A stretch of DNA of 63,175 nt, the filler included, from Basidiobolus ranarum (Eukaryota): NCBI GenBank assembly GCA_040143965.1. It is 16 parts of 16 records of this genome, joined end to end, with 100 filler letters (N's around TTAATTAATTAA, not from the genome) between each part and the next. Parts side by side here need not be neighbours in the genome. Positions count along the whole stretch, not along the records: positions 3,972 to 7,841 come from JASJQH010002242.1; 15 more parts are not named here. One strand, 5' to 3'. This document shows, piece after piece, positions 1 through 35,238 of this stretch. The notes under the pieces are model-generated. The model was given only the letters and a program-made list of their open reading frames with translations. It made no database searches and was not told the DNA's origin. Made by a program: the position numbers and the translations under genes. Positions within the stretch are counted from its first letter, which is position 1. Every line of letters begins with the position of its first letter.

Positions 1-790
1 ACTAAAGGAGTAAATAATTGAGAAGCATCTGGAAATATTCCTATTGAATATCTTAAAAATCCATAACCTGCTAATTTTAGTAATATTCCTGCTAATATTA
101 CTGAACCTGATACATTTGCTTCAGCATGAGCTTCAGGACATGATGGCAGTTTAATTACCAAAGTAGTATAAGTTATTTGATTGACAAGTGTTTTTCACTT
201 GTTCCTGGTCTGGGGCTAGGAACAACTGCCAAAAAACTGTGGTAAAAATGTAATAAAACCAATAAACACCTGGTTGCTAAGATTGGATTGAACTCTCCAC
301 TTCTCCACAAGCAAACTGCCTCCTTTACTATAGTGCTGTGAGAGGAATAATACTTGTCAATAGCAGAGAGTCAGTAACAAAACCATTGTCTTCTTCTTCA
401 ACTTGTGATATATAACCACTGGTATTGGAATAAGCAACATTAATTTGTAGCAGCATGACCTCAAAGTTGTCTGGACTAACTGGTTTGACCAAAGTTACAT
501 TTCTATCTACATCATTCTGGTCATATTATTGTAGTAGCTCCATGGTACCTGGACTTTTGGCAGTGTTACTGAGACTTTGAGGCAAAGGACAGCCAGTGGA
601 CTCAGTGGGCAAAGCCAAAGTCAAATTAGTGAACTTATTACTGTTGCTATACACCTGCTTTGTGCAGCTGGTGGCTTTGTATAAAGACTGTGCTGGCAAC
701 TACTTTCTAGGAAGCCTCAGGCCTTCATAGCACAAGAATTTTTTACAATAATAGCAGGGCTTTGTTAAATTTTTATGTTGCAGCAGGAGA
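1..790 (-). mobile_element. Internal fragment of the CACTA-like DNA transposon family
   Basis: About 180-700 aligns by eye with 42697-43230, which is contiguous with Tnp2-like transposase remnants; CpG-poor. Confidence 0.6.
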
Positions 791-929
791 AGGATACTTT
801 TGAAAACAAATCATCTCTTATGTAAGGCTGGTAACTAAGGTATTGCCCATCAATATCCGCAGCTGAAGTTTAGATGGTGTCACAGATGAGTCATCAGGGG
901 ATTTACAAGATCTTTCCGGTAATAGATGG

Positions 930-1343
930 CCTATATTCCAAATATAAATATCTCTATATCCATATAACAAATGTTTTATTATCTCACTTATTTATTTTAT
1001 TGTATTACACTATCATCTTAAGCAATTGAGTTACTTTTCTACCATAAAAGTCTCTTTACACTCTGAAGATTAAAGTGGCTAAAACCTAAGTTGCTTCTAA
1101 TATACAAAGTCTATCCCCATTATGTCAAGAGCCTCTAACATGGCAGCAGTGAATAAATTAGTGTCTTCTTTCAAAAAAGTGATTACTAATATTGAAACAT
1201 TTAATGAGCCAGATTTCCTTGAATGGAAACTAAACATACAACTTGTGCTTGAAGGCAAACATATCTGGGAGGTGGTTAAACCAGACAAAGTAGATGAAAC
1301 TTCTGAAGAAGAAATGGATTTCAAAGAAAAAGGAAGTATATAG
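930..1343 (+). mobile_element. Ty1/copia 5' remnant with gag N-terminus
   Basis: ORF 1122-1343 has NIETFNEPDFLEWKLNIQLVLEGKHIWEVV, a copia gag N-terminal pattern; 930-990 matches the reverse complement of 31714-31776. Confidence 0.6.
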
Positions 1344-1349
1344 CAGTTA

Positions 1350-3725
1350 AATTATTTGGGAGCTATTTGCAAGTGATTTGAAGAATTAGAGAAATTGGTG
1401 ATTTTCACTTGTTAAGTTATTAGGTAGAAAGCTGACATTTATAGTTTAATCAAGATGTAGACAAGCTAACAAGTAGAATGTGCTAAGGAAGGTCCTATGA
1501 GCATGTGTGCAAAGTTTGAGGCTTCTAGCACAAGTTTGAAAAACCTATTTTTCTTACAACATCTAAGTTGGTAAATATAGTCCAAGTAAGTTATGATTGA
1601 GAATAATGGATAATATCTTGGTGACTTAATACAAAACTAAGAACTATGCTCTATATTACTATATTGGTGCTCAGGCAATGCAAATTTCAACACTCTCCTT
1701 CAACTACATAGTCAAATAAACCAATCCTGATGAAGGTCTAAATTTCTGAAATTTCTGTGTAGCTAATGGTTTGGTTAATATATCAGCAAATATGTCTTCT
1801 GTAGAACAATAAGTTAAGTCAATAAACTTACTTTGTATAGTCTCTCTAAAGAAGGGATATCTGATATCTACATGTTTGCTTCTATTATGAAACATAGGTT
1901 TCTTAACCAATTTGATACAATTTTGATTATCTTGAAATAATGTAATTAGCAAATTTTGCTAATATCCTACATCTGATGAGAGTTTTCTTAACTATGTTTC
2001 TTCTTTTGTTACATTGCAGGTAGCCATGTGTTCTGTTTCTGTTGCGGAGAGTACTATGGCAGGTTGTTTCTTTGAATTCCAACAAATAGCTCCATTACAG
2101 CAAAGAAATAGGTGTCCTGTTATAGGTCTCCTAGCTTCAATATCTCTTCCACAATTTGCATCTGAATAGCCCATCAAATCAAAGCTTGATCCAGAATGAG
2201 TGTATATTAAGCACAGAGTCACAGTACCTTTCAAATATCTCAAAATCCACCTAACTGCTCTGATCCATTCAGATGCACATTTTTGAAGACATAGGCATAT
2301 AACTCCCACAGAAAATGCAATTTCTGGCTGCATTCAAACCATGAAATATATCAAATAACCAACCAGAGATTGATAAGGAAATATCTGGCTTTCATTTAAA
2401 TCCAAAAATGTTTGATTTGGTTGTTTTGTGGTCAAGTTCAGATTTGCCTCCATTGGAGCAGATACTGGATTACACTCTTCAATTCAAACTTCTTTAGCAT
2501 ACCCAGGTAATACTTTGGCTGGTTTAAAATCAATATTTTGATACCTGGTCTATCTTAATTGGGATTCTAAGCTTTGGTTGTCCCCAAAGTCATCAAGCCA
2601 TGGGAGGCTATAGTAAGTTCATCTACATATAAGGCTGATAAAAATGGGTTTACCTCATCTGGCCTGAAGTAGGTACTTTAGTTAGTATTACTCTTTTGGA
2701 ATTTGAGTGTGTCAAAAAAGTATTTATCTTGCTATTCCAAGCTGTTGGAGATTGTTTTACGCCATAGAGTGTTTTCTGGAGTCTCCAAGCTTTTTTAGGG
2801 TTTTATGGGTCCACAAATCCATCTGGCTAGTCAATATAGATCTCCTCAGCAAGCCTACCATTCAAAGAAGCACTTTTAACATCCATTGGATATATAGTAA
2901 ACTGATATTTGGCTGAAACTGCTAAAATCAATCCTATTTAATTAAACCTTGATACAGGAGCAAAAATTTGTATATAGTCTATTCCTGATGTTTGAGATTA
3001 GCCTTTGGCTACTAGTCTAGCCTTATACCTTTCTATACTTCCATCAGAATTGTATCTAACATTACAACCCAATGGCAGCCAATTAATTATCTATAATTAG
3101 CATAATTAAGACTTCAGATTTTGGTTAAAGAATATATACTTAGGTATGTCTTGTTTTGTCATTAATAGAGGTCATAAAGTACCTTTTGCCATCTATGGAG
3201 TAGTTTTTCATGTATCTGACTAGGTCAGAATGAAGACAGTTAAATTATGAGTGGACAAGATCTTTCTCAAGCTTGAAACTAGCAGACTGCAATGTTTTCT
3301 GTACTTCACCGTCACATAGACTTAATTTGGCAATATTACAAATATTGAGCATGAAATAAGGTGATATTTAAGCATTTAGAATAGTCTTTTCTTTTTTATG
3401 CCACAGTTGACAGATTATTTCACAGGTCTTGGCCAACTATGCATGTCCAAATGTAAATTTTTGATTTCTAGCTTATATAAGTTTTCAGTTTTGATTCAAG
3501 TAGTTTGTTTGGTATTATTCTGCTTTGTAATAGTGCATCCAGCTTGGCTGAGCACAAAACTTAGTTGTTGGGATGTTACTTAGCTTACTGGGAGTAGTTT
3601 CACAGCTATGTTTAGGTACCCACTGTACAACATCCAATTTGCAGATGGTATAGCTAATTTTTGGCTTAAATTGAGCACAACTGTGACCTTACCAACTGCA
3701 CTTAGTATGTAGTCATCTCCCAGTA
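1350..3725 (-). mobile_element. Degenerate Ty1/copia element: integrase, RT and RNase H remnants, PPT and 3' LTR (family A, from 1692 leftwards)
   Basis: Motifs KARLVAKG, GYSDAN, WNSKKQ, RSKHVDIRY, ADILTKPL; PPT AGTTGAAGGAGAG followed by TGTTGAAAT; LTR homologous to 10566-10913 and 32303-32650. Confidence 0.9.
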
Positions 3726-3871
3726 CCCTAACAAAAATAAAATCAATTTGCTCTGGATTGGATCGACCCTCCAAAATAGCAAAACCATCTGCGAACCATC
3801 ACAATATTGTTGGCTTGCATTCTGCCAGGGATTTTGATGGTGTGATGGTGGTTTCTTGACTGTATCTTAAC
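3726..3871. mobile_element. CCCTAACAAAA terminus of the CACTA-like transposon
   Basis: The same terminal sequence recurs at 11619, 25438 (rc), 26017 (rc), 41256 and 49447, each time starting abruptly at CCC. Confidence 0.8.
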
Positions 3872-3971: not shown

Positions 3972-5018
3972 AGCTGTGGTGCGGGCGCATGGTTATAGAT
4001 CCTATTCTTAACCTGCCAACTTTTCTCTCAATTCCAAATGCAATGGCATGCCATTTACAGACTTCTATATCTACTGTAGAGCTTACTGAACGTAGAGAAT
4101 CTAGGCATCATATATGTTGTTAGTTTAAGGTTTCTCTTTAGCAAACCATCCAATCTTACCGCGAACTTAGCGGGTATAGACCAATCAGGTATCGCACTAA
4201 GGATTATGGCTTAGCGCTAAGGTAATCTACCTCGATTAATAACTGTCAGATCCCAATCATAAAGCGATGGATCCTCGGTAAGCGGAAATTGCTGACCAAT
4301 AGGGAATATAGAAGGATTGCTAATAATAAGAAAGTTTCCCGATTCATCTACGCTCATCGACCAAATCTCCTGAATTTTTTCATTCAAAACAAAGCACAAA
4401 ATATCGCCTATTTAGTCAATCAAGGTCCGTCGTATACTATTTAGCCGCATTTGTGTTTCATATATTATCCCTGACCAGTGTACTGCTGAGGGATATTTAT
4501 ATCCTAATGGAAATATGTAGAGATGCTCAAGTAGCTGGCCACGCTCATTGCCCACAAAAAAACCCGTATGGAATGATTCCGCATTCTAAATATCGAACCG
4601 AGTTCTCTTGTGCATTCCAAACTGGCCCTTTTCAATAGTCGGTGCTGGCATCTGGATCTATTGCTGTGAATCTCAAAGGAGTAACGGCGATTCACTTCAG
4701 ATATGGCTTCATTTATAGATGTACCCAACTGATATCTGTCTCATAACGGAAGGTCACTGAACAAAAATAATCTTCAAGAGCCAGATCAATGGACCAGATA
4801 TTTAAGAATTTAGTGCTATCAATGAGCAGTTTGCATTTATTGTACTGATTACATCAAACTCTGGATTCTTCGAAAGGCTGTCTTCAAAGTATGGTTAGAT
4901 AGAGTAAATTACTTGAGTAACGACTGTGTTAGATGAAGTAAGATTGAGAAATAATATTGCCGAACTCTTCACCCCCTTCTTCTCCTACATATGTGGATCC
5001 CAAGTGTGGTTCGTAGGA

Positions 5019-5587
5019 TTAGTGATCGAGCAGATAAGATAGACAGAATATACCCAAAGCCAGGTTGAAGGCGGATATGGAAACAACATTGCCGAAGGAT
5101 TTCTTTGCAGTTGTCGCTACTTCAGTAGGCTTCGTGGTAGCTACTTTTACTGGTGCTGGGGGAGCTACGGTTTTCTCAGGTAATGCTGGATTCTTAATCT
5201 CGAAATAACTTCCATAGTATGCCTCGTCTCTTTTACCTGACATTTTGATTACATATCTGCCGGACTCTAGATCCTCAGGAACATCCCAAGTGTACGAGTG
5301 ATTTCCGGAACCCACGTCTCTTGCAATTTTACTAGCTGCTTTAAATTGCGAAGAACTACCGGTCATTAAGTCTAGATTAACCGTTTTGGTAGTGTTCTTA
5401 GGTTCACCCTCCCTTAATAATAATAATAAATTAGTGCCACGTAGTAATCAGTAATGGGTCCCCACTCTTACCATTTGATCTCTATACTAGAACCTGCATC
5501 GACAGCGTTATTTCCGGGTGCGTAAATAGCAATGTCAGCGTAGGTATATACAGCCAGAGAGACAAATAGAACAATGGAGAATTTCAT
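5019..5587 (-). CDS. Ser/Thr-rich GPI-anchored cell-wall protein with Kre9/Knh1-like N-terminal domain (~169 aa; exons 5587-5472 and 5412-5019)
   Basis: Signal peptide MKFSIVLFVSLAVYTYA; 59-nt GT-AG intron with ACTAAT branch site restores the frame; motif IEIKW..VNLDLMTG..SYTWDVP..GRYVI..YGSYFEI; P/T/A-rich stalk; hydrophobic C-terminus. Confidence 0.85.
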
Positions 5588-5973
5588 GTTAATGTATGTA
5601 GAGAAGCTTGATTGCTTTAATACTTTCCGTTGGATTCTCACCAGCTTATATATTTGGGAGGGAATTTATTAGACTTGCAGAAGAAATGATGTAGTTGCAA
5701 GTAGCATCGTTCACTTCGAAAGGCTATTAGATAACCTTTTTCTTCTACACATATTTCTACTAATTTATCAGAGATCAATATAGTGAGAAGTCTTGATTTC
5801 TACGACATCATATTGATTGGGTCGTGGATTTGATCAAGAAATAAAAACAAAATACAAAGTTCACTTTAAAAATTGGTTTAGATGAAAATCCTCTTCCTAA
5901 TCACGAGGTGTGAGGATACTTAAATAGATGAAACTTAAATAAATGCTGGCCATTTGAGGGGTATTTAAGTCAT

Positions 5974-6492
5974 TCAATAAAGGTATGCGAACAAGGCTAG
6001 AGACATAATCATGAAGAGACCTTGAGAGTTGGCATACTTTGTATTACCGGCGTTGCGCCCAGTATTAGAGTTGCTCATATTATTCTGACTTTGACCACTG
6101 TTTCCGCTATTAGAGCTTGACGTGGAGCTTCCGCTGTTCGTGGTGCTAGATGTGCCTTGCTCAACATTTAATCCAACGGCAGTGCAAGATTGTCGTAGAC
6201 CATCTAGGGCGGTCTGATCGGGCACAGCATTGGAGTTCATCGATTTGGCGGAACATGTACCACAGGCAGTGAATGTACTGAAGTACTGCTTCGTACACAT
6301 GCATTCTTTCATTGCAAGGGTTCCGGCGCTGGAGCTAGAATCAGCACTGGACATTTTCTCTTTACACCCTGGAGCTAACGCAGCAAAGCAAGTACGGCAT
6401 TCGGCAATATCCAAAATTTGGACCGCTGTAACGTCAATAACGTGTATTGCTAATACAAGAATTGAAAGAAGAATGCCAATATATCTGAACAT
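5974..6492 (-). CDS. Secreted/GPI-type Cys-rich surface protein (172 aa, 8 Cys, S/N/T-rich stalk)
   Basis: Signal peptide MFRYIGILLSILVLAIHV; eight Cys in the N-terminal domain (CFEM-like layout, not confirmed); hydrophobic C-terminal tail. Confidence 0.75.
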   Translation of the reverse strand: MFRYIGILLSILVLAIHVIDVTAVQILDIAECRTCFAALAPGCKEKMSSADSSSSAGTLAMKECMCTKQYFSTFTACGTCSAKSMNSNAVPDQTALDGLRQSCTAVGLNVEQGTSSTTNSGSSTSSSNSGNSGQSQNNMSNSNTGRNAGNTKYANSQGLFMIMSLALFAYLY

Positions 6493-7260
6493 CTTGTAAG
6501 TTGAATAAAGAGTGAAGATCAAAGTAATTGAACGATCTCGTTGATAATTTAAGATGTCGGATTCGAGTTAGTGAAGGCAAGAAATGAAGATGAAAACTTA
6601 AAGTAGCGATAGAACTCTTTTAAGAGGTTTTTAGATGAAGATTGCTCACGTGGATTTGCATATATTGCCGTTATTGAAGGTGCAGGTTCCCTGATTCTTG
6701 CACATTGAGGCCATAAAATTCAAATACCATATGGCTAATGCAGGAACAACCTGTACAAACGCATCATTTGGTACATATTTAAGCTTAAGTGAGACATAAT
6801 TTGACTGCATGTTCATTTATTGAAATTTGTGCAAATCAGGTGAGAGCCAACTGACGGTTTTATTAGCCATATGTTGCCACTGTAACATGATTTAGGGGAT
6901 GCAAATTTTAGCGCTTCTAGCGGCATTATCCAAATGTATATGTTGAATTAATAGGCTTGTGGAAGTGAAAGTCTTCTTTAAAACATCGATGATTGTTGTT
7001 GCACTCGGGTCGTGCATGCTATCTGTATTCGCACACTTTAGAGTATCTTTTAGGAGTTTTATTCAGTAATATATTTTGCATGCAGTAACTTCTTGATAAG
7101 AAATAGGTAGGGATTATAGCTGAGTGTGACATGGATAGTTTAAGGAGTATTGCTGCTGCTGGTATTTGGTTCAGGATCTTGGTATTTTCTAATTGAATAT
7201 AGGTGGGTATATCATTTGCATAACCAACTCGAGCTATCATAGCGCGAATTATTCTATGCT

Positions 7261-7841
7261 TTAAGCATTTTCTTTTGCACGAGGAGCGTCTGTAGTTCGG
7301 AAGATACCCCATAAGCCGTCAAGAATATTGGTAAACATAACACCATCTCGATATGCCCAGTCCCCAGTGTATGAGCTGGCGTAAAAAGTATCACTTTGTG
7401 TAGATCCTGGTGTAATGGCATTGTTTACCGACGTAAACTCACGTCCAGGTCGAGCACTTTGTGATAGCCATCCATGGCCATGTAGATGGAAAGTTACGGC
7501 CCTTGGTTTATCCAAGCCACCTACAATTCGAAAACGCTGTAGTACATTGGAATGGGCATTGTAGATTCGAGTAGCCGGATGATCAGTACGTAACCAATCA
7601 GGCTCACTAGCTGGATGATTCCGATAATTATAGGCCTTTTGGCCTTGATCTTCGAAGTCCACGAACACAAAGCCAGTCTTTGGATCAATATTAGGGGGCG
7701 CTTCACCATTTTCATCCCCATTGTCAATAACATCATTATCGACCCCAAGATCCGGTATTGGTTTGTCTAGGTTGCCATGATCGAAAAGCCGCAATCCCCT
7801 CAGGATAATCAATACTTTATCATGATAAATTATCGACCGCG
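7261..7841 (-). CDS. C-terminal cupredoxin domain of a large MnxG-like multicopper oxidase (5' end truncated by the contig edge)
   Basis: Frame is open to the contig edge; motifs GLRLFD, DFEDQGQKAYNYR, DKPRAVTFHLHGHGW, GDWAYRDG, GLWGIFR match my recollection of the last domain of Bacillus MnxG-type oxidases; no intron in 580 bp. Confidence 0.7.
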
Positions 7842-7941
7842 NNNNNNNNNNNNNNNNNNNNNNNNNNNNNNNNNNNNNNNNNNNNTTAATTAATTAANNN
7901 NNNNNNNNNNNNNNNNNNNNNNNNNNNNNNNNNNNNNNNNN

Positions 7942-8052
7942 AGTAACATTGACAACGGTCTTAGCGGCTTTACGGGAGGAGCCAGAGATAGCAACAGACT
8001 GCTTCTTGGTGCTGAGGATAACACCCTTGCCAGAGGGGTTGGCAGAAATACC
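7942..8052 (-). pseudogene. RPL28: Fragment or exon of 60S ribosomal protein eL28
   Basis: Translates as GISANPSGKGVILSTKKQSVAISGSSRKAAKTVVNVT with highly expressed-type codons; preceded by TATAG (possible acceptor) directly after copia RNase H sequence. Confidence 0.6.
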
Positions 8053-10210
8053 CTATATAAATCAACTTGTGCTTTAGCTGCAGGTTTAGTTGAGATGGCA
8101 GGAATTATTACTTCTTAGGGCAATAGACAAGTTCAAATATATATTTTCTATTACTTCTCTAACAAAATGATGCTTAATATCTATATGTTTGTTCTAGCAT
8201 GAAATGTTGGGTTTTCAGCTAATAAAATACAACTTGCATTATCCTCAAATACAGTAATAGCACTTTCTTGCATGTATTCTAAGTCTGTAAAGAACTTTCT
8301 TAACCACATAGCTTTGTGTGTAGTAGCAGAGGCAGCTATTTACTCAGCTTCTGTGATGGAAAGTGCTATGGATGGTTACTTCTTACTTTTCCAAGTTTTG
8401 GCTCCATTACTGTAGGGAAAGATGTACCCAGTTGTTGTTCTTCTATTGGCTTGGTTTCTTTCCCAGTATGCATTGCTGTAGCCTTCAAAATTTGTCAGTA
8501 AGTGGAGTGAACGGGCAGCTTCCGCTGCCCGGGACATATCTGAAGAGAGAATGCTGACATGAGTAACTTGAAAGCAGTTAAAAAACTGCTCGCCGAAAAT
8601 TCAAGGGCTGGGTAGCAACGTTAAACGGCTACCTTGTAAGTAACGGCCTCTCAGTCAAGAATGCATCAGCAACACATACTAAGAACAATGTCTGGACATG
8701 TTCAAACCATTGGATATCTTAGACTACCCACCATAGATTGATAAGGGCCCTCCTGGCTCTGATTTTAGTCATTTTGAGCTAAATCAGATGAAATTTTGAT
8801 TAATTTCAATATTGTGATCCATTAGTGTTGATACCAGCTTGCTATTCTCCATGTTGAAGCATTTTAGGATATTTGGGATGTATCCAGACTGATTCAGCTT
8901 GATTTTCTGATTGGTTTTATCTCTCTTGATATGGATTCCAAGAAACTAACTTAGTTCACCCATATCAGTGATCTGTTCTTGGTTTGCTAAGCTGCTTTTT
9001 GTCTGATTAAGTGCTTCTGTAATCTGCTGTGCATTTTTAGAACTTTAGGGAGTCCCAATATGTATCTATCTTGTTGTACCATGTCCTGGGTGCTTGCTTG
9101 AGTCCATATAGCAATTTTTGCAGTTTACAGATCATATCCAGGTGTTTTTGGTCTACCAATGCATCTGGTTGCTTTATATAGATCTCTTGCTCTAGATTTC
9201 CATTCAGACAGACTGCTTCTACATCAATTTGATGTAAATCAAGGTTATGGATGGCTGAGAGTGCAAGGATTGATTTAATGGAGCTAAACTTGGCTACTGG
9301 AACAATAGTTTCATCAAAATCAACTTCTGGTGTCTGGGATTGACCTTTTGCACCTAATCTTGCTCTGTATCTTTCTATAGCTCCATCAGCTTGTATCTGA
9401 CTTTATAAACCTATTTGCCACTTATTAGTTGTCTTCCAGATGGTAGAGGACTTAAAACCATTATTTTATTGTACTGAAGTGAAGAAAACTCATCAGACTT
9501 TGCTTTTTCCCATAATTTTAATTCTGGGCTTTCCAGAGCTTGACCTAGAATCTGTGGCTTGTCACAGAATGCTGCCTAAGCATAGACATTGTCACTGGAA
9601 GCATTGCACTAGTTTCCTGGCTTATTTCTCTATCTCTGCTGTAATTGGGACTGGAATTATAGTTGAATAGGGCTCAGATACAGCTGGAATTTTGTCAGAT
9701 ACTTCCTGAAGAGTGCTGATTGTGTTTTCCGGATCAAGAACCATGGTTTGAGGTGCAAATTTGCTTTTTCATCAAAAATCACTTCTCTGCACTTAATTAA
9801 CTTCTAATTTTTGGTATTAAAAGTCAGTTGGACTTAGAGCAATCACAGTGACCAAGATATATGCATTTTCTGCATTTGGGTTCCGTTTTAGATGATTTTA
9901 GAGCTGGAATTAGGCAAGATGCTATGCATCCAAAGATCCTGAGATGATCCACACTTGGTTTTGATATATATAGGGCCTGAAATGGGGTAGAATTTTGTAG
10001 CATTATTGCTTGGCATCTGCTTTTAATGTAGACTGCAGTGGAGACAGATCTAGCCAAATATTGGTAATCTAACTGTTGATTATGTAACATTGATATTGCC
10101 ATCTCCCCTACGGTTCTGTTAGCATGTTCTGCAACTCCATTTTGCTGTGGAGTATATGAGTCAGGGCAAAATTCTGAGTGGATTGGATCTCTCCTGATCT
10201 TGAAAATCAC
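8053..10210 (-). mobile_element. Degenerate Ty1/copia pol (integrase, RT, RNase H)
   Basis: YTPQQNGVAE, HLRIFGC, RARLGAKG, YQSMVGSL, KHIDIKHHFVRE motifs; many stops and frameshifts. Confidence 0.9.
8495..8655 (+). rRNA. rnl: Non-functional fragment of mitochondrial/bacterial-type LSU rRNA (probable NUMT)
   Basis: GAAGAGAGAATGCTGACATGAGTAAC..CTCGCCGAAAATTCAAGGG..CAACGTTAA resembles 23S rRNA around E. coli positions ~1200-1350; perfect 8-bp stem CGGGCAGC-TTCC-GCTGCCCG at 8512-8531. Confidence 0.75.
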
Positions 10211-10565
10211 TATCTGTGAAGTTGTCCATACATGTTACCTTCATGTCGAAAGATGAATAATTCTAGCAGTTGGCCTTGGTTGCTGTGGTTGATAGTACAA
10301 ATTATACTGGTATGTGTGTCTAGTAGGACACTACTAGGGTTAACTCTTCCACATATGTAAAAAACTCACTGGTTGGTTTGGTTAAATCAGGTAAATTGCA
10401 TGCAATGATGAATGAAAATGTGGGCTGTTCTCTTTGCAGTTGTACATAAAAAATGGAAGAAACAATAAGAACTCTGCCAAGCTAGTGTTGCTATTGATAT
10501 GTACCTGGCAGCCTTCCATAAAAGGTCATGGTGGAAACACACTATTTGTGGGATGCTATGATGGG

Positions 10566-11335
10566 TGTTGAAATTAGCATTGCCTCAACACCAATATGGT
10601 CATATATAGCTTAGTACTTAGTTATCTTATAAGTCACTTGGTTATTATACATTATTCTCAATTGGAATTTACTTGGAGTATTTTTACCAACTTAGAAGCT
10701 TTTAGATATTTAGAATTTTGAAACTTGTGCTTGAAGCCCCAAACTTTGCACCCATGTTCCTGGGACCTTCCTTGACACATTCTGCATGTTAGTTTGTTTA
10801 CATCTTGACAAAACTATAAATGTCAACTTTCTACTCAATAAAGCAATAAGTGAAAGCCACCAAGTTCTCTTATTGTCCAAACCACTTCCAACAGGATCAC
10901 ATATACTTTAACAGGTTATGAGCCCCAAGCTTGCACTCTCTGTAATGTCTACTTCTCAAATTTATAGAACTTTTCCCTCTTCTGAACAATTGGATGGAAC
11001 CAATTATCAAGTTTGAAAAATGAAAATCAAACTGCTGCTGCAAGAAAAAGGGCTTTGGGACACTGTTGTAGGTGAAGAAAACAATGAAAAACTCTCTGAA
11101 ACAAAGTTTTACTCCAGGTTAAAATAGAACAAAGTGCCTTTATCACAATTTGCTTCAATGTTAAGGATAAATTGCTAATTCAATGCTCAAGAGCTAAAGC
11201 TGCCAAGAAGGTATGGAAAGCCTTAGAAGACATCTACCAAACATGTTCTGCTGCCAACTAGATGTTTCTAAGCAGACAATTCTTTAACTTAAAGATGAAG
11301 CTAGGAGAAGACTTTAAATCACTTATTAATAGCTC
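10566..11335 (+). mobile_element. Ty1/copia 5' LTR (10566-10913), PBS (10914-10925) and gag remnant
   Basis: TG...CA LTR of family A; PBS GGTTATGAGCCC; gag from 10945 reads LDGTNYQV*KMKIKLLLQEKGLWD. Confidence 0.85.
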
Positions 11336-11339
11336 AAGC

Positions 11340-11618
11340 ACATTCCATGAAGACATCTGTAAACTTCAATCTGAAGACCCATTGGTAATATTAATCAAGA
11401 AAGCCCAGGATACACCCAAAGGCCTCTTGAGCTTGAACATGTACTGCCATTTCTCTGTCATCAAAGATCTCTTGTTTTATAAGAAGCCCCTTTATATTCC
11501 AGATCACACTTCCAGACTCAAAATTGTGCAGGAAAGACATGACACACCACTTCCAGGACACTTTGGTATTGCCAAATAATATATGTTGGCATCCAGGGAT
11601 TATTGATGGCCCAAAATA
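11340..11618 (+). mobile_element. Ty3/gypsy integrase zinc-binding (H2C2) remnant
   Basis: LLFYKKPLYIP..RLKIVQERHDTPLPGHFGIAK. Confidence 0.75.
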
Positions 11619-11810
11619 CCCTAACAAAAATAAATTGATTTGATCCGGATTGGATCCACCCTCCAAAATAGCAAAACCGTCAGAGAACCGTCACAATATT
11701 GCTGGCTTGCATTCTGCCAGGGATTTTAATGGTGTGACAACAGTTTCTTGATGGTATCTTAACGGTATTCATACATGTGAAAATATTGATCCTCAAATTT
11801 GGCAGGCGTT
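11619..11810. mobile_element. CCCTAACAAAA terminus of the CACTA-like transposon
   Basis: Homologous to 3726-3871 and 49447-49635; interrupts the gypsy integrase remnant. Confidence 0.8.
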
Positions 11811-11910: not shown

Positions 11911-12021
11911 GGTGCGCCAGTTGTCAACGCTGAATTTCTTGAATAGAGTATTGAAAAATTTCAGGAAATCAGGATTGTCAACAATGACGTCACCATCTCC
12001 GAAGCAATGTCCCTTGCGCCA
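11911..12021. repeat. 111-bp exact terminal direct repeat of contig 4 (second copy 15667-15777)
   Basis: GGTGCGCCAGTTG...CCTTGCGCCA is identical at both contig ends. Confidence 0.95.
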
Positions 12022-12798
12022 TCCTAAGGATTGGCAATAGTTCAACCAAGGGAATGATGGAGTGATGTCCTTGAGTTGTTTGAAGGTGAGTTTGTTGTAA
12101 GTGCGATAGACATCACGCTGCTCAACTGAGGACAAAGAATTCTTGGCAAGGGCTGTTTCAAAGTCCAACACTACCTTGGCCTTAGCCTTGGCGTTTTTGA
12201 CTTTGGCGAGGTTGAGGATCTTCTCAATATGTGCAAGGTACTTCTGACGGACCTCAGCTTGGCCCTCTTCAGTGTAGTACTCCTTGCTTGGGAGAGAAAG
12301 GCCGTTCTGTCCAATGTATGACAATGTCCAAGTGGAGTTCTTACTATCGGGCTGGGATGCAATGGCGAAAAGAGGACTTCCGCCATGGACCGAGACCGAG
12401 AGACTGTGGAGGGTACCAAGTGTCTTGGCAACATCACTAGGATTGCGAATACTGCCTACTTGCTTCAACAACTTCTTGATTGGGCTTAATCCCGACTTCT
12501 TGATGAGAGCCAAGTCCAATCCTGACGCATAGTAGTCCCCTAGCAATGAATGCTTAGTGGAGTTTCCTGCTTTCTCCAGAGTGGCCAAGAGATAGTCAGA
12601 ATTTCTTTGGTCTAGGACGGAGAAGGTGTTCCAGATGGAACGATCGCCTGGGAGTGTGGTGTTCTTGATCCAGTCGTAGTTGGCATGGAAGTAGAAGTTC
12701 TCGGTAGCTGCGGGAACTTGGGGTGGTAGGTCTTGAGCATACACTGAACTGCCAGTGACGGCCAAGGATAATAGAAGCAGTTTAGCAGTAGTGCGCAT
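11911..12798 (-). CDS. M13 family (neprilysin/ECE/PepO-like) zinc metallopeptidase, N-terminal 296 aa
   Basis: Signal peptide; NFYFHANYDW and QNGLSLPSKEYY motifs; runs off the contig edge into the 111-bp terminal repeat. Confidence 0.92.
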
Positions 12799-14526
12799 AT
12801 CAGTCAGTTAATCAGTAAATGAAGAACTTGGATAGTGATTAGAGAGGAACGTCGGTTGGATTATATAGCTTTATGTTGTCCCGCAAATTAGTCTAGTCAT
12901 CCATGAACTCTGATCCGATGATAGGCTTGGATTGGCAGGTAGAGAAGTACAACTTTGTCTGGTGTCCCACAAGGTATGCTGGCCATGGAGTACGAAATCC
13001 GAGTATTCAAGTTGTTGCAAGCATCCGTGGGGAAAGCCAAGTTTATCACCCGATGAGCTCAGTATTGTCCAAAACGATAAACAGCATACGATTTAGTTGG
13101 GAGATTTGTTTGAAATAGTCATTGGCTGAAATTATAGGCGATTAGCAAATCCTCATGACTAAGTTACTGATTACAGCAGCTTCTTTAAATGCATGTGGTG
13201 AGATGAAACAAAAGATGCTGATTTACTGAGTACTCTGGTGCATTTCCATTTGGTGACTGGAGTAGCACATTATTGTGTTGTGTACCAACCTTGATGATCC
13301 TGAGAAATCCCAATTATATGAGCCGGCATAGAGAAAGCAACTTATTTGTATATCTGTTTGCGAGGTAGTTGCTTCCTACTAGAATTGTGTACCGCACGAA
13401 TATTTGAAATTATTTGAAAGGTAACAAATCATGTGTCTATAATCTCTCCTAGTATTGCTTCCGGCTTACTCGTTAATGGAATTGCATGTATATTGTGATA
13501 AAAGCAGGTATGGCACTCAATTGTTTGCATTTGATTTTTTACCATATCGCCGCATGCATTACTGTACCATAAGACCTATTAAGTGGTATGAATTGGCGTG
13601 TTACATTTCAATATAATGTTGTCGTGAGAATCAAGTGGGATTATATCATATCTAGTGCGCCAGGTTTGACATCTTAGAGTTGCTAAAATTATAAATTATG
13701 GTGGAATATACCATGTGTGTTCATGTTGAAGGTACGATAAATATGCCTATTCGGAATTCAAATCAGATATGCCGATAACAAGGGTAATATCAAGTGATAC
13801 TGCGGTAATACTCCGAGTTCGTTAAAGTTGCACGTGTACCTATTTTTATTGTAATACTGATTCACATATTCGACATTTATGGATACTGTAGGATTAATGC
13901 AATTGAACTTAACTGTATTGTATGATACAGTTAAAGGTAATAATATATGGCATGCGCCATGTGAGCAATATGCACCTTCTTTATAAAGCAAGAAACCTTA
14001 GTCAAATCACACTCATGACAGTTGAGACTCGGAATGATACAGTTAGTACGAAAATATGCCGTGAAATTTGAAACTAACCTTAACATCACTGAAAATAAAT
14101 ATGATTTAGGATATATTCCCACTATAGAATTCCTATACATCCAGAAAATCCAACTATAGTGTGAGTAAAATTCGGTTAGAAATTCTTGGGTACTTTTGCT
14201 AAAACCTGCGCAGATCATTTTTACTATAGTGAAAGCAATTTGATTTCAAATTTTTAGAAACTTTTTTATAAATAACCTTATGGAGAACAGTATGTTAATA
14301 CTAGCACCATAAAGCCTTTATGCGCTTACTAGATGTGGACTACTTGAATTCATATACTCTATAGAATAACTAGCATCATGGAAAGTCGACGGCAATAAAT
14401 ATATCCGAAAAAGTGCAATTTTAATTTATTATCATAAGATCACTAATTTCAAAATCAATTACTGTGGACATCCTTCAAAAATGGTTCCCAAAATTAATGC
14501 AAGCAACATTCTAGTCTTAATGTGAT

Positions 14527-15777
14527 TTACCAGATGTTGATTCTGTCAGCTTCTTTACGGTACATCTTATCTCCTTCCTTAACACCAAAGGCATCGTAGA
14601 ATTCTTGGAAGTTGGACAAGGGTCCATTGACTCTCCAAATACCTGGAGCGTGAGGATCGGTACGAAGACGATACAAGGCCTCTTCCTTGCGAACTACATT
14701 CTTCCAGACTGAAGCATATGCCGTAAAGAACTGCTGCTCAGGAGTAAGGCCGTCAACGGTCTTAACTACTCCTGGGTTAGTCTTTTGCCACTCTTGGAAG
14801 GCGAGATATGAGAGCTTAACTCCGCCAATATCGGCAATGTTCTCACCCTGAGTGAGATTCCCATTGACTTTGGATCCATACATATCAAAGGAGCTGTAAA
14901 GGTCAATGACGGTCTTGGCACGTTTATCGAACTCAGCGGCATCCTTGGGAGTCCACCAATCTTCGAGATTACCTTGAACGTTGTAACTGCGGCCTTGATC
15001 ATCAAAACCGTGGGTGATTTCGTGGCCAATGACTGCACCAATAGCACCGAAGTTGGCAGCGGCATTTCCTCTGGGATCCTTCTCATCAGGAGCATAGAAG
15101 AATGGAGGCTGGAGAATACCGGCGGGGAAAGCAATGTCATTGGAGTTGGGGTCATAGTAGGCATTCACTTCATAAGCAGTCATGAACCACTTGGACTTAT
15201 CAGTGGGGCCATTCGCAGCGCTCAACACCTTCTTGAAGTTAGCCGCGTTAATATCCAGAACATTGGAGAAGAATGGGCGCTTGCGAGAAATCTTGATGTG
15301 AGAGTAGTCACTCCATTTGTCAGGGTATCCAACCTTGACATTGAGACCCTTGAGCTTCTCGAGGGCACGCTTACGAGTCTCGGGGCTCATCCATTCAATT
15401 GTCTCAAGACGAGTGGCAAGTGCGTTCTGGATGAGCTTGACCATATCCAGTGCTTGTGCTTTAGCCTCGGGTTTGAACTTGTCTTGGACAAACAACTGAC
15501 TCAAAGTGTCAGGAATTTGGGAGCCAATTTGATCTAAAAGGAACTGACCACGAGGGGATGGCTCACTCTGACCACGGAGAGTACGCCCGAAGAAATCAAA
15601 GTCCTGAGACTTGAACTCCTGGTCAAGGTAGGTAGCACTGGAACCAAGAACTTGCCATTCCAAATAGGTGCGCCAGTTGTCAACGCTGAATTTCTTGAAT
15701 AGAGTATTGAAAAATTTCAGGAAATCAGGATTGTCAACAATGACGTCACCATCTCCGAAGCAATGTCCCTTGCGCCA
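14527..15777 (-). CDS. M13 family zinc metallopeptidase, C-terminal catalytic part
   Basis: VGYPD, VNAYY, FPAGILQPPFF, GHEITHGFD (HExxH), GENIAD, DPHAP..RVN; joins in frame to 11911-12798 through the 111-bp overlap to give 675 aa. Confidence 0.95.
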   Translation of the reverse strand, partial: WRKGHCFGDGDVIVDNPDFLKFFNTLFKKFSVDNWRTYLEWQVLGSSATYLDQEFKSQDFDFFGRTLRGQSEPSPRGQFLLDQIGSQIPDTLSQLFVQDKFKPEAKAQALDMVKLIQNALATRLETIEWMSPETRKRALEKLKGLNVKVGYPDKWSDYSHIKISRKRPFFSNVLDINAANFKKVLSAANGPTDKSKWFMTAYEVNAYYDPNSNDIAFPAGILQPPFFYAPDEKDPRGNAAANFGAIGAVIGHEITHGFDDQGRSYNVQGNLEDWWTPKDAAEFDKRAKTVIDLYSSFDMYGSKVNGNLTQGENIADIGGVKLSYLAFQEWQKTNPGVVKTVDGLTPEQQFFTAYASVWKNVVRKEEALYRLRTDPHAPGIWRVNGPLSNFQEFYDAFGVKEGDKMYRKEADRINIW

Positions 15778-33095: not shown

Positions 33096-33755
33096 TCAAT
33101 CGTATTGATGACCAGAACGAGAACGAGAATGGCTCTGTTGATCATTTCTGCGTGAAATACCACGCTCGTATTCGTTATCATACTCATCTTGCTCATATTG
33201 ACGACCATAGCGAGAGCGAGGATAACTCTGCTGACCATTTCTGCGAGATACACCACGTTTGTACTCGTTATCATACTCATCTTGCTCGTATTGACGGCCA
33301 TAACGAGAGCGAGGATAGTTCTGTTGACCATTTCTGCCAGAGATACCACGTTGGTATTCATTATCGTACTCGTCTTGTTCATATTGACGACCATAGCGAG
33401 AGCGAGGATAGTTTTGCTGACCATTTCTGCCAGAGACGCCACGTTCGTATTCTTCATCATACTCGTCCTGTTCATATTGACGACCATAGCGAGAGCGAGG
33501 ATAATTCAGTTGACCATTTCTGCGTGAAATTCCACGCTCATATTCGTTATCATACTCATCTTGCTCGTATTGACGGCCATAGCGAGAGCGAGGATAGTTC
33601 TGTTGACCATTGCTGCGTGAAACTCTACGCTCGTATTCGTTATCATACTCATCTTGCTCGTATTGACGACCATAGGGAGAGTTGTTTTGCTGATCACTTC
33701 TGCGAGTCAAGCCTCTTTCGAAGCGGCTTTGTGATTCATGTTGGTTAGAAGGCAT
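33096..33755 (-). CDS. Tandem-repeat low-complexity protein (219 aa; six 31-aa Y/R/G/Q/E/N-rich repeats)
   Basis: ATG-initiated ORF; TATA-like TTATAAAA ~80 bp upstream and AATAAA downstream; repeat YGRQYEQDEYDNEYERGISRRNGQQNYPRSR; no frameshift; normal CpG content. Confidence 0.7.
   Translation of the reverse strand: MPSNQHESQSRFERGLTRRSDQQNNSPYGRQYEQDEYDNEYERRVSRSNGQQNYPRSRYGRQYEQDEYDNEYERGISRRNGQLNYPRSRYGRQYEQDEYDEEYERGVSGRNGQQNYPRSRYGRQYEQDEYDNEYQRGISGRNGQQNYPRSRYGRQYEQDEYDNEYKRGVSRRNGQQSYPRSRYGRQYEQDEYDNEYERGISRRNDQQSHSRSRSGHQYD
33117..33674. repeat. Tandem repeat, 93-bp unit x6
   Basis: Six consecutive near-identical 93-bp units. Confidence 0.95.
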
Positions 33756-35238
33756 GTTAGAGAATATTGGTTTTACTGGTTATCAAATGAATTGGTATTC
33801 AAGTGTAGTGATATGTTTACTCGCTGTTCCGTTTTATAACAAGAAGTGGCTTAGAAGGCAGACATGTGAAGGCTAAGCCACCACCTAGAAGGATTACTCC
33901 TAAGGCAATACGCAATAATTTCTAAAAATCGCTCACATACTCTGGCATGGATGATCTTATTCCTAATCTCTTCTCATGACTCTATGGCCATATTGGCGGT
34001 ATCGCATAATATCATATGAAGGATTCGTGGTAGCCGATTTCCTGTCAGTGATTAATGACTTTTGCGGTCATATTTTATTGAAAACTGAATACGAATGATG
34101 GAATTACGGCATATGTATCAAGAGGTCTCTTGCGGTGTATTTCCGTTAACTGATAGATATTTGACTCAGCATATAGATTCAGGTGATGTTTGAGCTCCAG
34201 AGAATCAATTGCAATTTAGCCTATAGAACTCTTTATTTTTAAACAAGAAAAACATCTCAAGTCTGCATTGGAAGGTTTTATATTTTATTCTAGGTTAGCT
34301 TCTTGTAATGCATCACCAACATTTATTTATTGAATGTGTATTTGACCATTCATCTTCAGGCAAGCTTTGAATTCGTACGAAGTTGTTCACCAGGAATTAT
34401 TTGTCGAAGCAAAGTTAAGGAAATATCCTTTGGAAAACTTCTCGACAATATTAATTCGGTTTAACTGATCAAGAATAGGAATATATTGCGAATTGCCAAG
34501 CCTTATGGTTCTTTGATTGCAGTGATTATGTGAAAGTTCACATTGTTGTTGCATATTATAAAGTTGCGCAGGCAAAATTATGATTTTCATTTCTCTAAAC
34601 AGCAGAATTCTCTTTCCCATCATAAAGAAGGGCTACAGCTAGAAATAGCAGCATTCAGAAACAGAGTAGTGACCTAAATTGTGAAGATCAAGAAGCATAC
34701 TGGTAATCATATGACTGTTAAAAGTAATTATGAAGAAAGATTGAATGGGCCAAAAAATGAATCTGAGGCCCTCTAAACTCTAACAAAGGTGGGCTAACTA
34801 CCAATTTACCAGTTTGAGAAATAAATTACTTGATTATGAATAAAAAGCATAAACCTTTGAAAGACAATTCTGAGAGCAAGTAATATGGTGGCAGGAGCTA
34901 CTGTTCTTTCAAATGCTATTGAAGTATCTATCAATTCTATAGAGTATTTGGAGTTAAAGAAAAATTGGATTTCCTACTAGCAGCCAAAACCATTTCTAGA
35001 GTAGGAAGAGAGAATTTAGATCACAACTATGCAGTGATCTATAGAGATATTGGGTTCAGTTCGCATTACAAATGTATATGTATTCGACCGTTAGAGAAGA
35101 CTTCACAATAATTTAATTCCATATATTATAACAAAATATGCTTTCAAATTGAGAAGTTTATTTCAGGAAAAAAGGTGGTGACAAGGAACGAAATGAGGTG
35201 AGGTAGCGTAGTTATAGCATAAAGGGAGCTTAGTGTAT

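What the first reader, a model, noticed from the sequence alone, without database searches (positions are those of the whole stretch)
7261..7841. Bacterial MnxG-like (Mn-oxidase type) multicopper oxidase in a fungal gene neighbourhood
Seen: an intron-free frame open to the contig edge with DFEDQGQKAYNYR, DKPRAVTFHLHGHGW, GDWAYRDG and GLWGIFR, on the same contig as an intron-containing fungal GPI-protein gene. Known: fungal laccases and ferroxidases end in an HCH..H type-1 copper motif. This domain has HxH but YRDG in place of HCH, which is how I recall the terminal domain of large Bacillus MnxG-type oxidases. Inference: a horizontally acquired large multicopper oxidase, possibly for Mn(II) oxidation or spore-wall mineralisation, that I do not know to be characterised in fungi.
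Basis: partly seen in the sequence, partly recalled or inferred. Interest (0 to 1): 0.75.

Follow-up and report, generated by a model that had tools for sequence, protein, structure and literature searches.

The report
Bacterial-type MnxG oxidase tail in fungus
This is the cut-off tail of a real Basidiobolus gene for a giant copper enzyme of the kind bacteria use to turn dissolved manganese into mineral; the fungus shares it with a few soil chytrids through an old gain from bacteria, and what it oxidises in a fungus is untested.

Summary
Observation confirmed. Window 7261-7839(-) encodes the last 192 residues, the copper-free sixth domain, of an MnxG-like six-domain multicopper oxidase. The only significant PDB match is Bacillus MnxG.

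The rest of the gene is probably contig C8115, which overlaps the window's contig end and carries all 12 copper ligands. Its model matches MnxG at TM 0.76.

It is neither contamination nor a chimera. A duplicated region (C308) has the same two GPI-type genes with a relic of the oxidase in the same place, and paralogues sit beside Ran and FancD2.

The genome holds at least 8 copies of this 3' end. Basidiobolus and chytrid proteins form one clade (100/100) nested among bacterial homologues, and a sister relationship to Bacillota is rejected. So this is an old transfer, not a recent one. No MnxE or MnxF was found.

Mn(II) oxidation is the best guess (about 45%) but untested. No paper on fungal MnxG turned up in 10 searches. 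This scan already noted the family on other contigs of this genome and in a chytrid.

The parts
7261..7839 (-). 3' end (192 codons plus stop) of an MnxG-like six-domain multicopper oxidase: cupredoxin domain 6, which lacks the type-1 copper Cys
   Evidence: (71% identical to a 1270-aa B. meristosporus protein)
7768..7841 (-). 74-nt overlap with the end of G000:C8115, the probable 5' part of the gene (1168 codons); 89% identical, 7 of 8 differences change the residue
7621..7659 (-). DFEDQGQKAYNYR motif, shared with bacterial and chytrid homologues
7468..7512 (-). DKPRAVTFHLHGHGW: vestigial HxH motif of domain 6
7297..7365 (-). GDWAYRDG...GLWGIFR: the position of the HCH..H..M type-1 motif, degenerate as in MnxG domain 6
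5974..6495 (-). Single-exon secreted, Ser/Asn-rich, GPI-type fungal gene (neighbour; no Pfam hit)
   Evidence: 80% identical copy on C308
5019..5587 (-). Kre9/KNH-domain GPI-type fungal gene with a 59-nt intron at 5471-5413 (neighbour)
4605..6953 (.). Region duplicated on G000:C308 (about 70% identity); C308 carries a frameshifted ~200-bp relic of the oxidase at the syntenic position and orientation
7842..7941 (.). Assembly spacer: the gene is cut by the contig end, not by a biological break

Best explanation
The fragment is the C-terminal, copper-free domain 6 of a ~1,340-residue, intronless, probably secreted six-domain multicopper oxidase of the MnxG family. It belongs to a multi-copy Basidiobolus family that descends, with homologues in soil chytrids, from one old transfer out of an MnxE/F-less bacterial subfamily. 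Shown by sequence and model: a single type-1 Cu site in domain 2 and trinuclear-cluster ligands shared by domains 2 and 3, as in Bacillus MnxG. From established multicopper-oxidase chemistry, four one-electron oxidations at the type-1 site feed O2 reduction to water at the cluster; domain 6 is scaffold. Inferred: the substrate is a reduced metal ion, most likely Mn(II), oxidised to Mn(III) or Mn oxide outside the cell or on the wall or resting spore, without the MnxE3F3 cap. Odds by step: family identity 0.97; genuine fungal gene 0.97; old bacterial origin shared with chytrids 0.8; C8115 is the same gene 0.7; Mn(II) is the main substrate 0.45.
For: PDB: the fragment hits MnxG at E=1e-10 and the C8115 protein at E=1.5e-204 over residues 68-1140. 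The AlphaFold model (mean pLDDT 68) matches 9bxa at TM 0.76 and 35% identity, against 0.45 and 10% for ceruloplasmin and 0.19 for laccases. H384/H387/H389, H437-C438-H439-H443-M448, H649/H651 and H695/H697 are present in C8115. All four motifs are present in 12 of the other 13 fungal proteins checked; one chytrid gene model lacks HDH. The window follows C8115 at 18 of 20 sites where C8115 and paralogue C2303 differ, and follows C2303 at 0. The fungal clade is 100/100 and sits inside a 100/100 clade with 15 prokaryotic or unnamed rows. AU tests reject fungi outside all close prokaryotic rows (p=5e-5) and Basidiobolus+Bacillota (p=1e-37). GC and GC3 are like host genes. The C8115 subgroup keeps the acidic/His motifs HDE, EExHH and HEExH of MnxG. 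The two studied family members, Bacillus and Pseudomonas MnxG, both oxidise Mn (PMC13689576) at only 25% identity to each other (bioRxiv 2022.11.10.515945), so the fungal protein is closer to Bacillus MnxG than they are to each other. The genome has two contigs that each carry a Cu-oxidase_2 gene and an FTR1 gene (C7124, C6925), read here as Fet3-Ftr1 pairs, so an iron-uptake role is already filled.
Against: There are no activity, expression or read data. No MnxE or MnxF match was found in G000 with one query each. The nearest bacterial relatives (Actinomycetota, Cyanobacteriota, Myxococcota and others) are to my knowledge uncharacterised. Several residues nearly invariant in bacteria are changed in all Basidiobolus copies (D577, E688, H706 positions). 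Many homologues come from anaerobic gut Clostridia, so family membership does not imply Mn oxidation. The window/C8115 overlap is only 89%, whereas five other contig-end overlaps among these loci are 99-100%. An unnamed EukProt protein (P0167) joins the fungal clade on a long branch, so the eukaryotic history may be wider than fungi. The signal peptide rests on an N-terminal extension and a hydropathy window of 2.15; 11 of 75 bacterial homologues also reach 2.0. P. putida MnxG was not placed in my trees.
Confidence: 0.5

Rival explanations
1. Same secreted enzyme and same origin, but the physiological substrate is organic (phenolics, pigment or wall cross-linking, siderophore-bound metal) or another metal (Fe(II), Cu(I)); any Mn oxidation is incidental.
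For: No MnxE/F found. Several acidic/His positions are changed in Basidiobolus, and the second subgroup (C188, C624) has lost HDE and HEE. Homologues are common in anaerobes. Multicopper oxidases are promiscuous (established knowledge).
Against: Both studied MnxG proteins oxidise Mn. The window's subgroup keeps the MnxG-type acidic motifs. The genome already has canonical Cu-oxidase_2 genes and two apparent Fet3-Ftr1 pairs.
Confidence: 0.35
2. The window copy is a separate recent duplicate or allele of the C8115 gene that is under relaxed selection or decaying, not the true end of C8115.
For: 7 of 8 overlap differences are non-synonymous, against 159 of 597 differing codons between paralogues (p=6e-4). 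Other overlaps are nearly perfect. The C308 duplicate has already decayed. The excess of departures in the first 24 codons is not significant (5 of 20 vs 14 of 106, p=0.18).
Against: 192 codons are open with the family motifs intact. Beyond codon 24 the window is not faster than paralogue C2303 (14 vs 21 unique changes in 152 sites). No other contig continues C8115. Base-call errors at a contig end give the same non-synonymous excess.
Confidence: 0.2
3. The eukaryotic branch is older than fungi or moved between eukaryotes (for example chytrid to Basidiobolus), rather than one bacterial transfer into a fungal ancestor followed by many losses.
For: EukProt protein P0167 groups with the fungal rows (SH-aLRT 99-100). 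The free tree puts Basidiobolus inside the chytrid sequences. The distribution is very patchy: 13 named fungal proteins among the best 120 hits, all Basidiobolus or chytrid.
Against: P0167 is a long branch of unknown species. Chytrid monophyly is not rejected (p=0.088). The eukaryotic clade is still nested in bacteria under either history.
Confidence: 0.2
4. Recent, Basidiobolus-specific transfer from gut Bacillota, like the NRPS transfers reported for this genus.
For: The genus has 2-5% HGT candidates, many from Firmicutes (PMC7466969 section 17). The copies are intronless.
Against: AU test rejects Basidiobolus+Bacillota. The chytrids are sister with 100/98-99 support. 36% of native genes in the genus also lack introns.
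Confidence: 0.02
5. Bacterial contamination or a chimeric contig.
For: Fragmented assembly (13,754 contigs), gene at a contig edge, no reads examined.
Against: Syntenic relic on C308. Copies lie beside a DEAD-box helicase, Ran and FancD2. Orthologues exist in B. meristosporus on 83-128 kb contigs. The best bacterial identity is only 40-43%.
Confidence: 0.01

Closest known systems
MnxG of Bacillus sp. PL-12 (Mnx complex MnxE3F3G, PDB 9bxa)
   Same: Six cupredoxin domains; type-1 Cu in domain 2 only; cluster ligands on domains 2 and 3; degenerate domain 6 (HxH, YRxG); 35% identity and TM 0.76 to the C8115 model.
   Different: Eukaryotic, multi-copy, with an N-terminal hydrophobic extension. No mnxE/mnxF found. 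It descends from the non-Bacillota side of the family. Activity untested.
MnxG of Pseudomonas putida GB-1 (NCBIfam NF041487)
   Same: Best NCBIfam match, six matched stretches. A secreted Mn oxidase with a Sec signal and no known MnxE/F (PMC13689576).
   Different: Score 256 against a cut-off of 3100; the profile has 1894 positions, far longer than these proteins.
Uncharacterised MnxG-like oxidases of Actinomycetota, Cyanobacteriota, Myxococcota, Bacteroidota and Alphaproteobacteria
   Same: Closest prokaryotic relatives (40-43% identity); sister group at 86/85 to 93/92; no mnxE/F match in 0 of 24 such loci.
   Different: No donor phylum can be named; their function is unknown to me.
Fungal three-domain laccases and Fet3 ferroxidases
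   Same: Same 10 His + Cys copper chemistry.
   Different: Three domains, with the type-1 motif at the C terminus; TM 0.19 and 10-12% identity. G000 encodes such genes separately.
Ceruloplasmin / algal Fox1 six-domain ferroxidases
   Same: Six-domain fold (TM 0.45 to ceruloplasmin).
   Different: They have a type-1 site in domain 6, which prokaryotic forms lack (PMC3600357) and this protein lacks; about 10% identity.

Membership tests
MnxG-like six-domain multicopper oxidases (protein family) | About 1,200+ residues, six cupredoxin domains colinear with MnxG | tested here: met
   Shown on C8115 and on full-length paralogues C188 and C624. The window itself holds only domain 6.
MnxG-like six-domain multicopper oxidases (protein family) | Type-1 Cu (H, C, H, M) in domain 2 and trinuclear ligands on domains 2 and 3 | tested here: met
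   Shown on C8115, whose join to the window is about 70% likely, and on C2303, C188 and C624.
MnxG-like six-domain multicopper oxidases (protein family) | Domains 4 and 6 without the type-1 Cys | tested here: met
Bacillus Mnx complex (MnxE3F3G) | MnxE and MnxF partner genes | tested here: not met
   No match at E<=1 in G000 with one MnxE and one MnxF homologue, both verified against 9bxa. The same type of query finds them in 25 of 56 Bacillota loci. The assembly is fragmented, so this means 'not found with these queries'.
Bacillus Mnx complex (MnxE3F3G) | Oxidises Mn(II) via Mn(III) to MnO2 | not testable with these tools
   Needs an enzyme or culture assay.
Bacillus Mnx complex (MnxE3F3G) | Located on the spore surface | not testable with these tools
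   Only an N-terminal hydrophobic extension was seen.
NCBIfam NF041487 copper_ox_MnxG equivalog | Score above 3100 bits | tested here: not met
   256 bits
Fungal laccase / Fet3 | Three domains with a C-terminal HCH..H type-1 motif | tested here: not met
Ceruloplasmin / Fox1 type | Type-1 Cu in domain 6 and a cluster between domains 1 and 6 (cluster position recalled) | tested here: not met
   Domain 6 lacks HCH; the ligands lie in domains 2 and 3.

The most novel reading that the evidence does not exclude
Early-diverging fungi (Basidiobolus, soil chytrids) and perhaps another eukaryote carry a dedicated, secreted or wall-anchored MnxG-type enzyme that precipitates manganese oxide without the MnxE/F cap. 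This would be a route to fungal Mn biomineralisation, gained from bacteria before or around the chytrid-Zoopagomycota split, distinct from Mn peroxidase, superoxide and three-domain oxidases. In Basidiobolus the family would have split into a metal-site-retaining subgroup (this gene) and a re-tuned subgroup.
Probability: 0.3. Interest if true: 0.75.

Novelty: new variant of a known kind. Interest (0 to 1): 0.5.

Why it matters
A 2013 survey found MnxG-type six-domain oxidases only in bacteria and two archaea (PMC3600357). A 2023 review lists Mn peroxidase, superoxide and small oxidases for fungal Mn oxidation (PMC10252929). A eukaryotic, MnxE/F-less branch gives a direct test of two open points: whether MnxG alone can make Mn oxide, a question raised in PMC13689576, and whether early-diverging fungi oxidise manganese enzymatically. 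It also shows an old transfer that a screen requiring zero fungal hits (PMC7466969) would be expected to miss. The window fragment itself is only a non-catalytic tail.

Tried and rejected
Pfam and NCBIfam on the 192-aa fragment gave no hit. The search for related loci with a single fungal protein found nothing in bacterial genomes; an alignment-based query did. The careful mixture-model tree did not finish, so only the quick PMSF tree is reported; one alignment run timed out.

An attempt to map ceruloplasmin's labile-metal ligands onto domain 2 was inconclusive: ceruloplasmin matched only at E=0.22 and not over the relevant stretch. The ESM Atlas lists only bacterial clusters and cannot show small eukaryotic ones. 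No species name could be obtained for P0124, P0167 or most metagenomic rows. No sequencing reads could be examined, so expression and the physical join are open. The cryo-EM paper (doi 10.1021/jacs.3c06537) is not held, so the Mn-binding residues could not be checked.

Rejected: ordinary laccase, contamination or chimera, recent Bacillota donor, and intronlessness as evidence of recent transfer.

Full report
Setting. The window is a concatenation of unplaced contigs of about 3.9 kb with N-spacers. The finding is the end of the second contig (3972-7841, G000:C2242). The genome has 65 Mb in 13,754 contigs. One of its contigs encodes a protein identical over 1,022 residues to a record named Basidiobolus ranarum.

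Observation. The frame 7839..7261(-) gives 192 residues and a stop, is open to the contig edge and contains all four quoted motifs. Against the PDB it matches only Bacillus MnxG significantly (residues 1085-1204, E=1e-10), with weaker echoes in MnxG domains 2 and 4. It is therefore domain 6, which in MnxG also has HxH and YRSG and no type-1 Cys. A 2013 survey notes that the domain-6 mononuclear site is absent in prokaryotic six-domain proteins (PMC3600357, passages). The neighbours are a Kre9/KNH-domain gene with a canonical 59-nt intron and a second GPI-type gene.

The rest of the gene. G000:C8115 carries a 1,168-codon frame that runs off its end and overlaps the window contig by 74 nt at 89% identity. 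At 20 sites where C8115 differs from paralogue C2303, the window follows C8115 at 18 and C2303 at none. No other contig continues C8115. Seven of the eight differences change the residue, which fits base-call errors at a contig end or a relaxed duplicate. The tests to separate these were not decisive (p=0.18), although the rest of the fragment is not accelerated (14 vs 21 unique changes). Against the join, five other contig-end overlaps among these loci are 99-100% identical. I put the join at about 70%; the implied protein is about 1,340 residues.

Anatomy. The C8115 protein aligns to MnxG over residues 68-1140 (E=1.5e-204). Its model (mean pLDDT 68, pTM 0.65) matches 9bxa at TM 0.76 and 35% identity, well above ceruloplasmin (0.45) and laccases (0.19). 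All ten His, the Cys and the axial Met are present: the type-1 site in domain 2, and cluster ligands on domains 2 and 3. A ~65-residue N-terminal extension with a hydrophobic helix suggests secretion. No signal-peptide predictor was run, and the hydropathy value alone does not separate it from bacterial starts.

Not contamination, not a chimera. C308 is a roughly 70% identical duplicate of window 4605-6953 with both GPI-type genes. At the syntenic place and orientation (C308:10238-10434) it has a frameshifted relic matching oxidase residues 725-791 (tblastn E=1.7e-6, blastn E=4e-11). The link between the oxidase and the fungal genes therefore predates that duplication. Other copies lie next to a DEAD-box helicase and Ran (C188) or on a contig with Ran and FancD2 (C7042). 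GC and GC3 lie within or just below the range of six host genes. No reads were examined.

Family size. Eight domain-6 ends (C2242, C2303, C7988, C188, C624 twice, C7042, C9885) and five catalytic domain-2 motifs were counted in 14 loci from 13 contigs. Some may be alleles, for example C2303 and C7988 at 95%. Uninterrupted frames reach 1,169-1,406 codons. Two subgroups exist in both B. ranarum and B. meristosporus. The window's subgroup keeps the HDE, EExHH and HEExH motifs of bacterial MnxG (HDQ in C2303), while the C188/C624 subgroup has QD[RK] and H[DN]K. That these motifs bind substrate is inference. Several other residues nearly invariant in bacteria are changed in all Basidiobolus copies.

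Origin. Of 3,755 homologues at E<=1e-20, the best 120 were listed. Thirteen are named fungal: 6 Basidiobolus and 7 chytrid (Rhizophlyctis, Borealophlyctis, Powellomyces, Spizellomyces, Fimicolochytrium). The other named hits are bacteria, the best at 40-43% identity. The 3,635 unlisted hits were not seen, so absence from other fungi is not shown.

In a 234-row FastTree, all 15 fungal rows grouped with two unnamed rows, P0124 and P0167. I counted P0124 as fungal from its placement alone. P0167 is an EukProt protein of unknown species on a long branch; it stayed with the fungi under LG+G4 and a quick mixture model (SH-aLRT 99-100). With P0167 left out and taxa thinned to 37-38 rows, the 11 fungal rows were one clade at 100/100.

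Rooted on six named distant oxidases, the fungal clade lies inside a 100/100 clade that excludes Bacillota. It is sister (86/85) to a mix of Actinomycetota, Cyanobacteriota, Myxococcota, Bacteroidota, Acidobacteriota and Alphaproteobacteria. AU tests under LG+G4 reject Basidiobolus+Bacillota (p=1e-37) and fungi outside all close prokaryotic rows (p=5e-5). They do not reject chytrid monophyly (p=0.088). Several 'prokaryotic' rows are unnamed metagenome proteins. The simplest reading is one old gain from bacteria with many losses; transfer between eukaryotes is not excluded.

Partners. MnxE and MnxF homologues from a Sutcliffiella locus (verified against 9bxa) found nothing in G000. Four such queries hit 25 of 56 Bacillota loci and 0 of 24 others, with flanks of up to 5 kb. 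The fungal lineage thus comes from the cap-less side of the family. It works like MnxG in architecture but is not a member of the Mnx complex.

Mechanism. By established multicopper-oxidase chemistry, the type-1 Cu takes single electrons from a substrate and passes them through the Cys-His path to the cluster that reduces O2; domain 6 is structural. Mn(II) is the most likely substrate, at about 45%. Both studied family members oxidise it (PMC13689576, passages), the fungal protein is closer to Bacillus MnxG (35%) than Pseudomonas MnxG is (25%; bioRxiv 2022.11.10.515945, passages), and two contigs already carry apparent Fet3-Ftr1 pairs. An organic or other-metal substrate is a close rival at about 35%. 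A spore-wall role is only an analogy with Bacillus.

Literature. Ten full-text searches gave no listing that describes an MnxG-type enzyme in fungi; most listed papers were seen only as titles and abstract starts. Term searches found no mention of copper oxidases in the main text of PMC7466969 (section 17 read; supplements unavailable, and its HGT table could list these genes). The same held for PMC11291939 (main text; two supplementary files) and bioRxiv 2025.03.31.646025. Passages of PMC8778642, PMC10252929 and PMC5622069 were also read. Subscription journals, including the cryo-EM paper and laccase-database papers, were not searchable.

Earlier scan notes. Six notes on other contigs of this genome and one on a chytrid reach a similar reading. 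I looked them up after forming mine; they are not independent evidence.

Verdict. A real, non-catalytic tail of a genuine fungal MnxG-like oxidase from an old bacterial transfer: a new variant of a known kind, apparently not described in the literature searched, with function open. Interest 0.5.

Noticed in passing
G000:C308:10238-10434 (L133:8739-8935): Frameshifted ~200-bp relic of the MnxG-like gene at the position syntenic with the window copy; the duplicate region lost the gene.
   Followed up: yes
L133:1-7830 (G000:C308:1500-9329): Intronless NRPS frame of more than 2,600 codons, by eye with a methyltransferase-like insert and a terminal thioesterase-like domain, directly upstream of the relic.
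   Followed up: no
window 11911-15777: The contig begins and ends with the same 111 nt inside an M13 (neprilysin-type) peptidase gene, with the 5' half at one end and the 3' half at the other; probably a collapsed tandem array.
   Followed up: partly
protein P0025 (Fimicolochytrium jonesii): This chytrid MnxG-like protein has a Cys-rich N-terminal extension and a Ser/Thr-rich tail ending in a hydrophobic stretch, like a GPI or membrane anchor; it may be a cell-surface form.
   Followed up: no
protein P0167 (EukProt, species unknown): A 2,031-aa MnxG-like protein with a Cys-rich repeat N terminus and all copper motifs, grouping with the fungal clade on a long branch.
   Followed up: partly
G000:C188, C655, C7042: Oxidase copies recur next to the same host genes (Ran on C188 and C7042; shared upstream sequence on C188 and C655), which points to large-scale segmental or genome duplication.
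   Followed up: partly
G000:C624 (L014, L015): Tandem array of at least two oxidase copies plus a remnant.
   Followed up: partly
window 33096-33779: Low-complexity gene with ~31-residue Tyr/Glu/Arg/Gln-rich tandem repeats.
   Followed up: no
window 1-3871 and 7942-11810: What look by eye like decayed copia-type retrotransposon sequences with many stops on the flanking contigs.
   Followed up: no
L044-L120 (GTDB loci): MnxG-like genes with intact type-1 motifs are common in anaerobic gut Lachnospiraceae, Oscillospiraceae and Clostridium, where Mn oxidation is not an obvious role.
   Followed up: no
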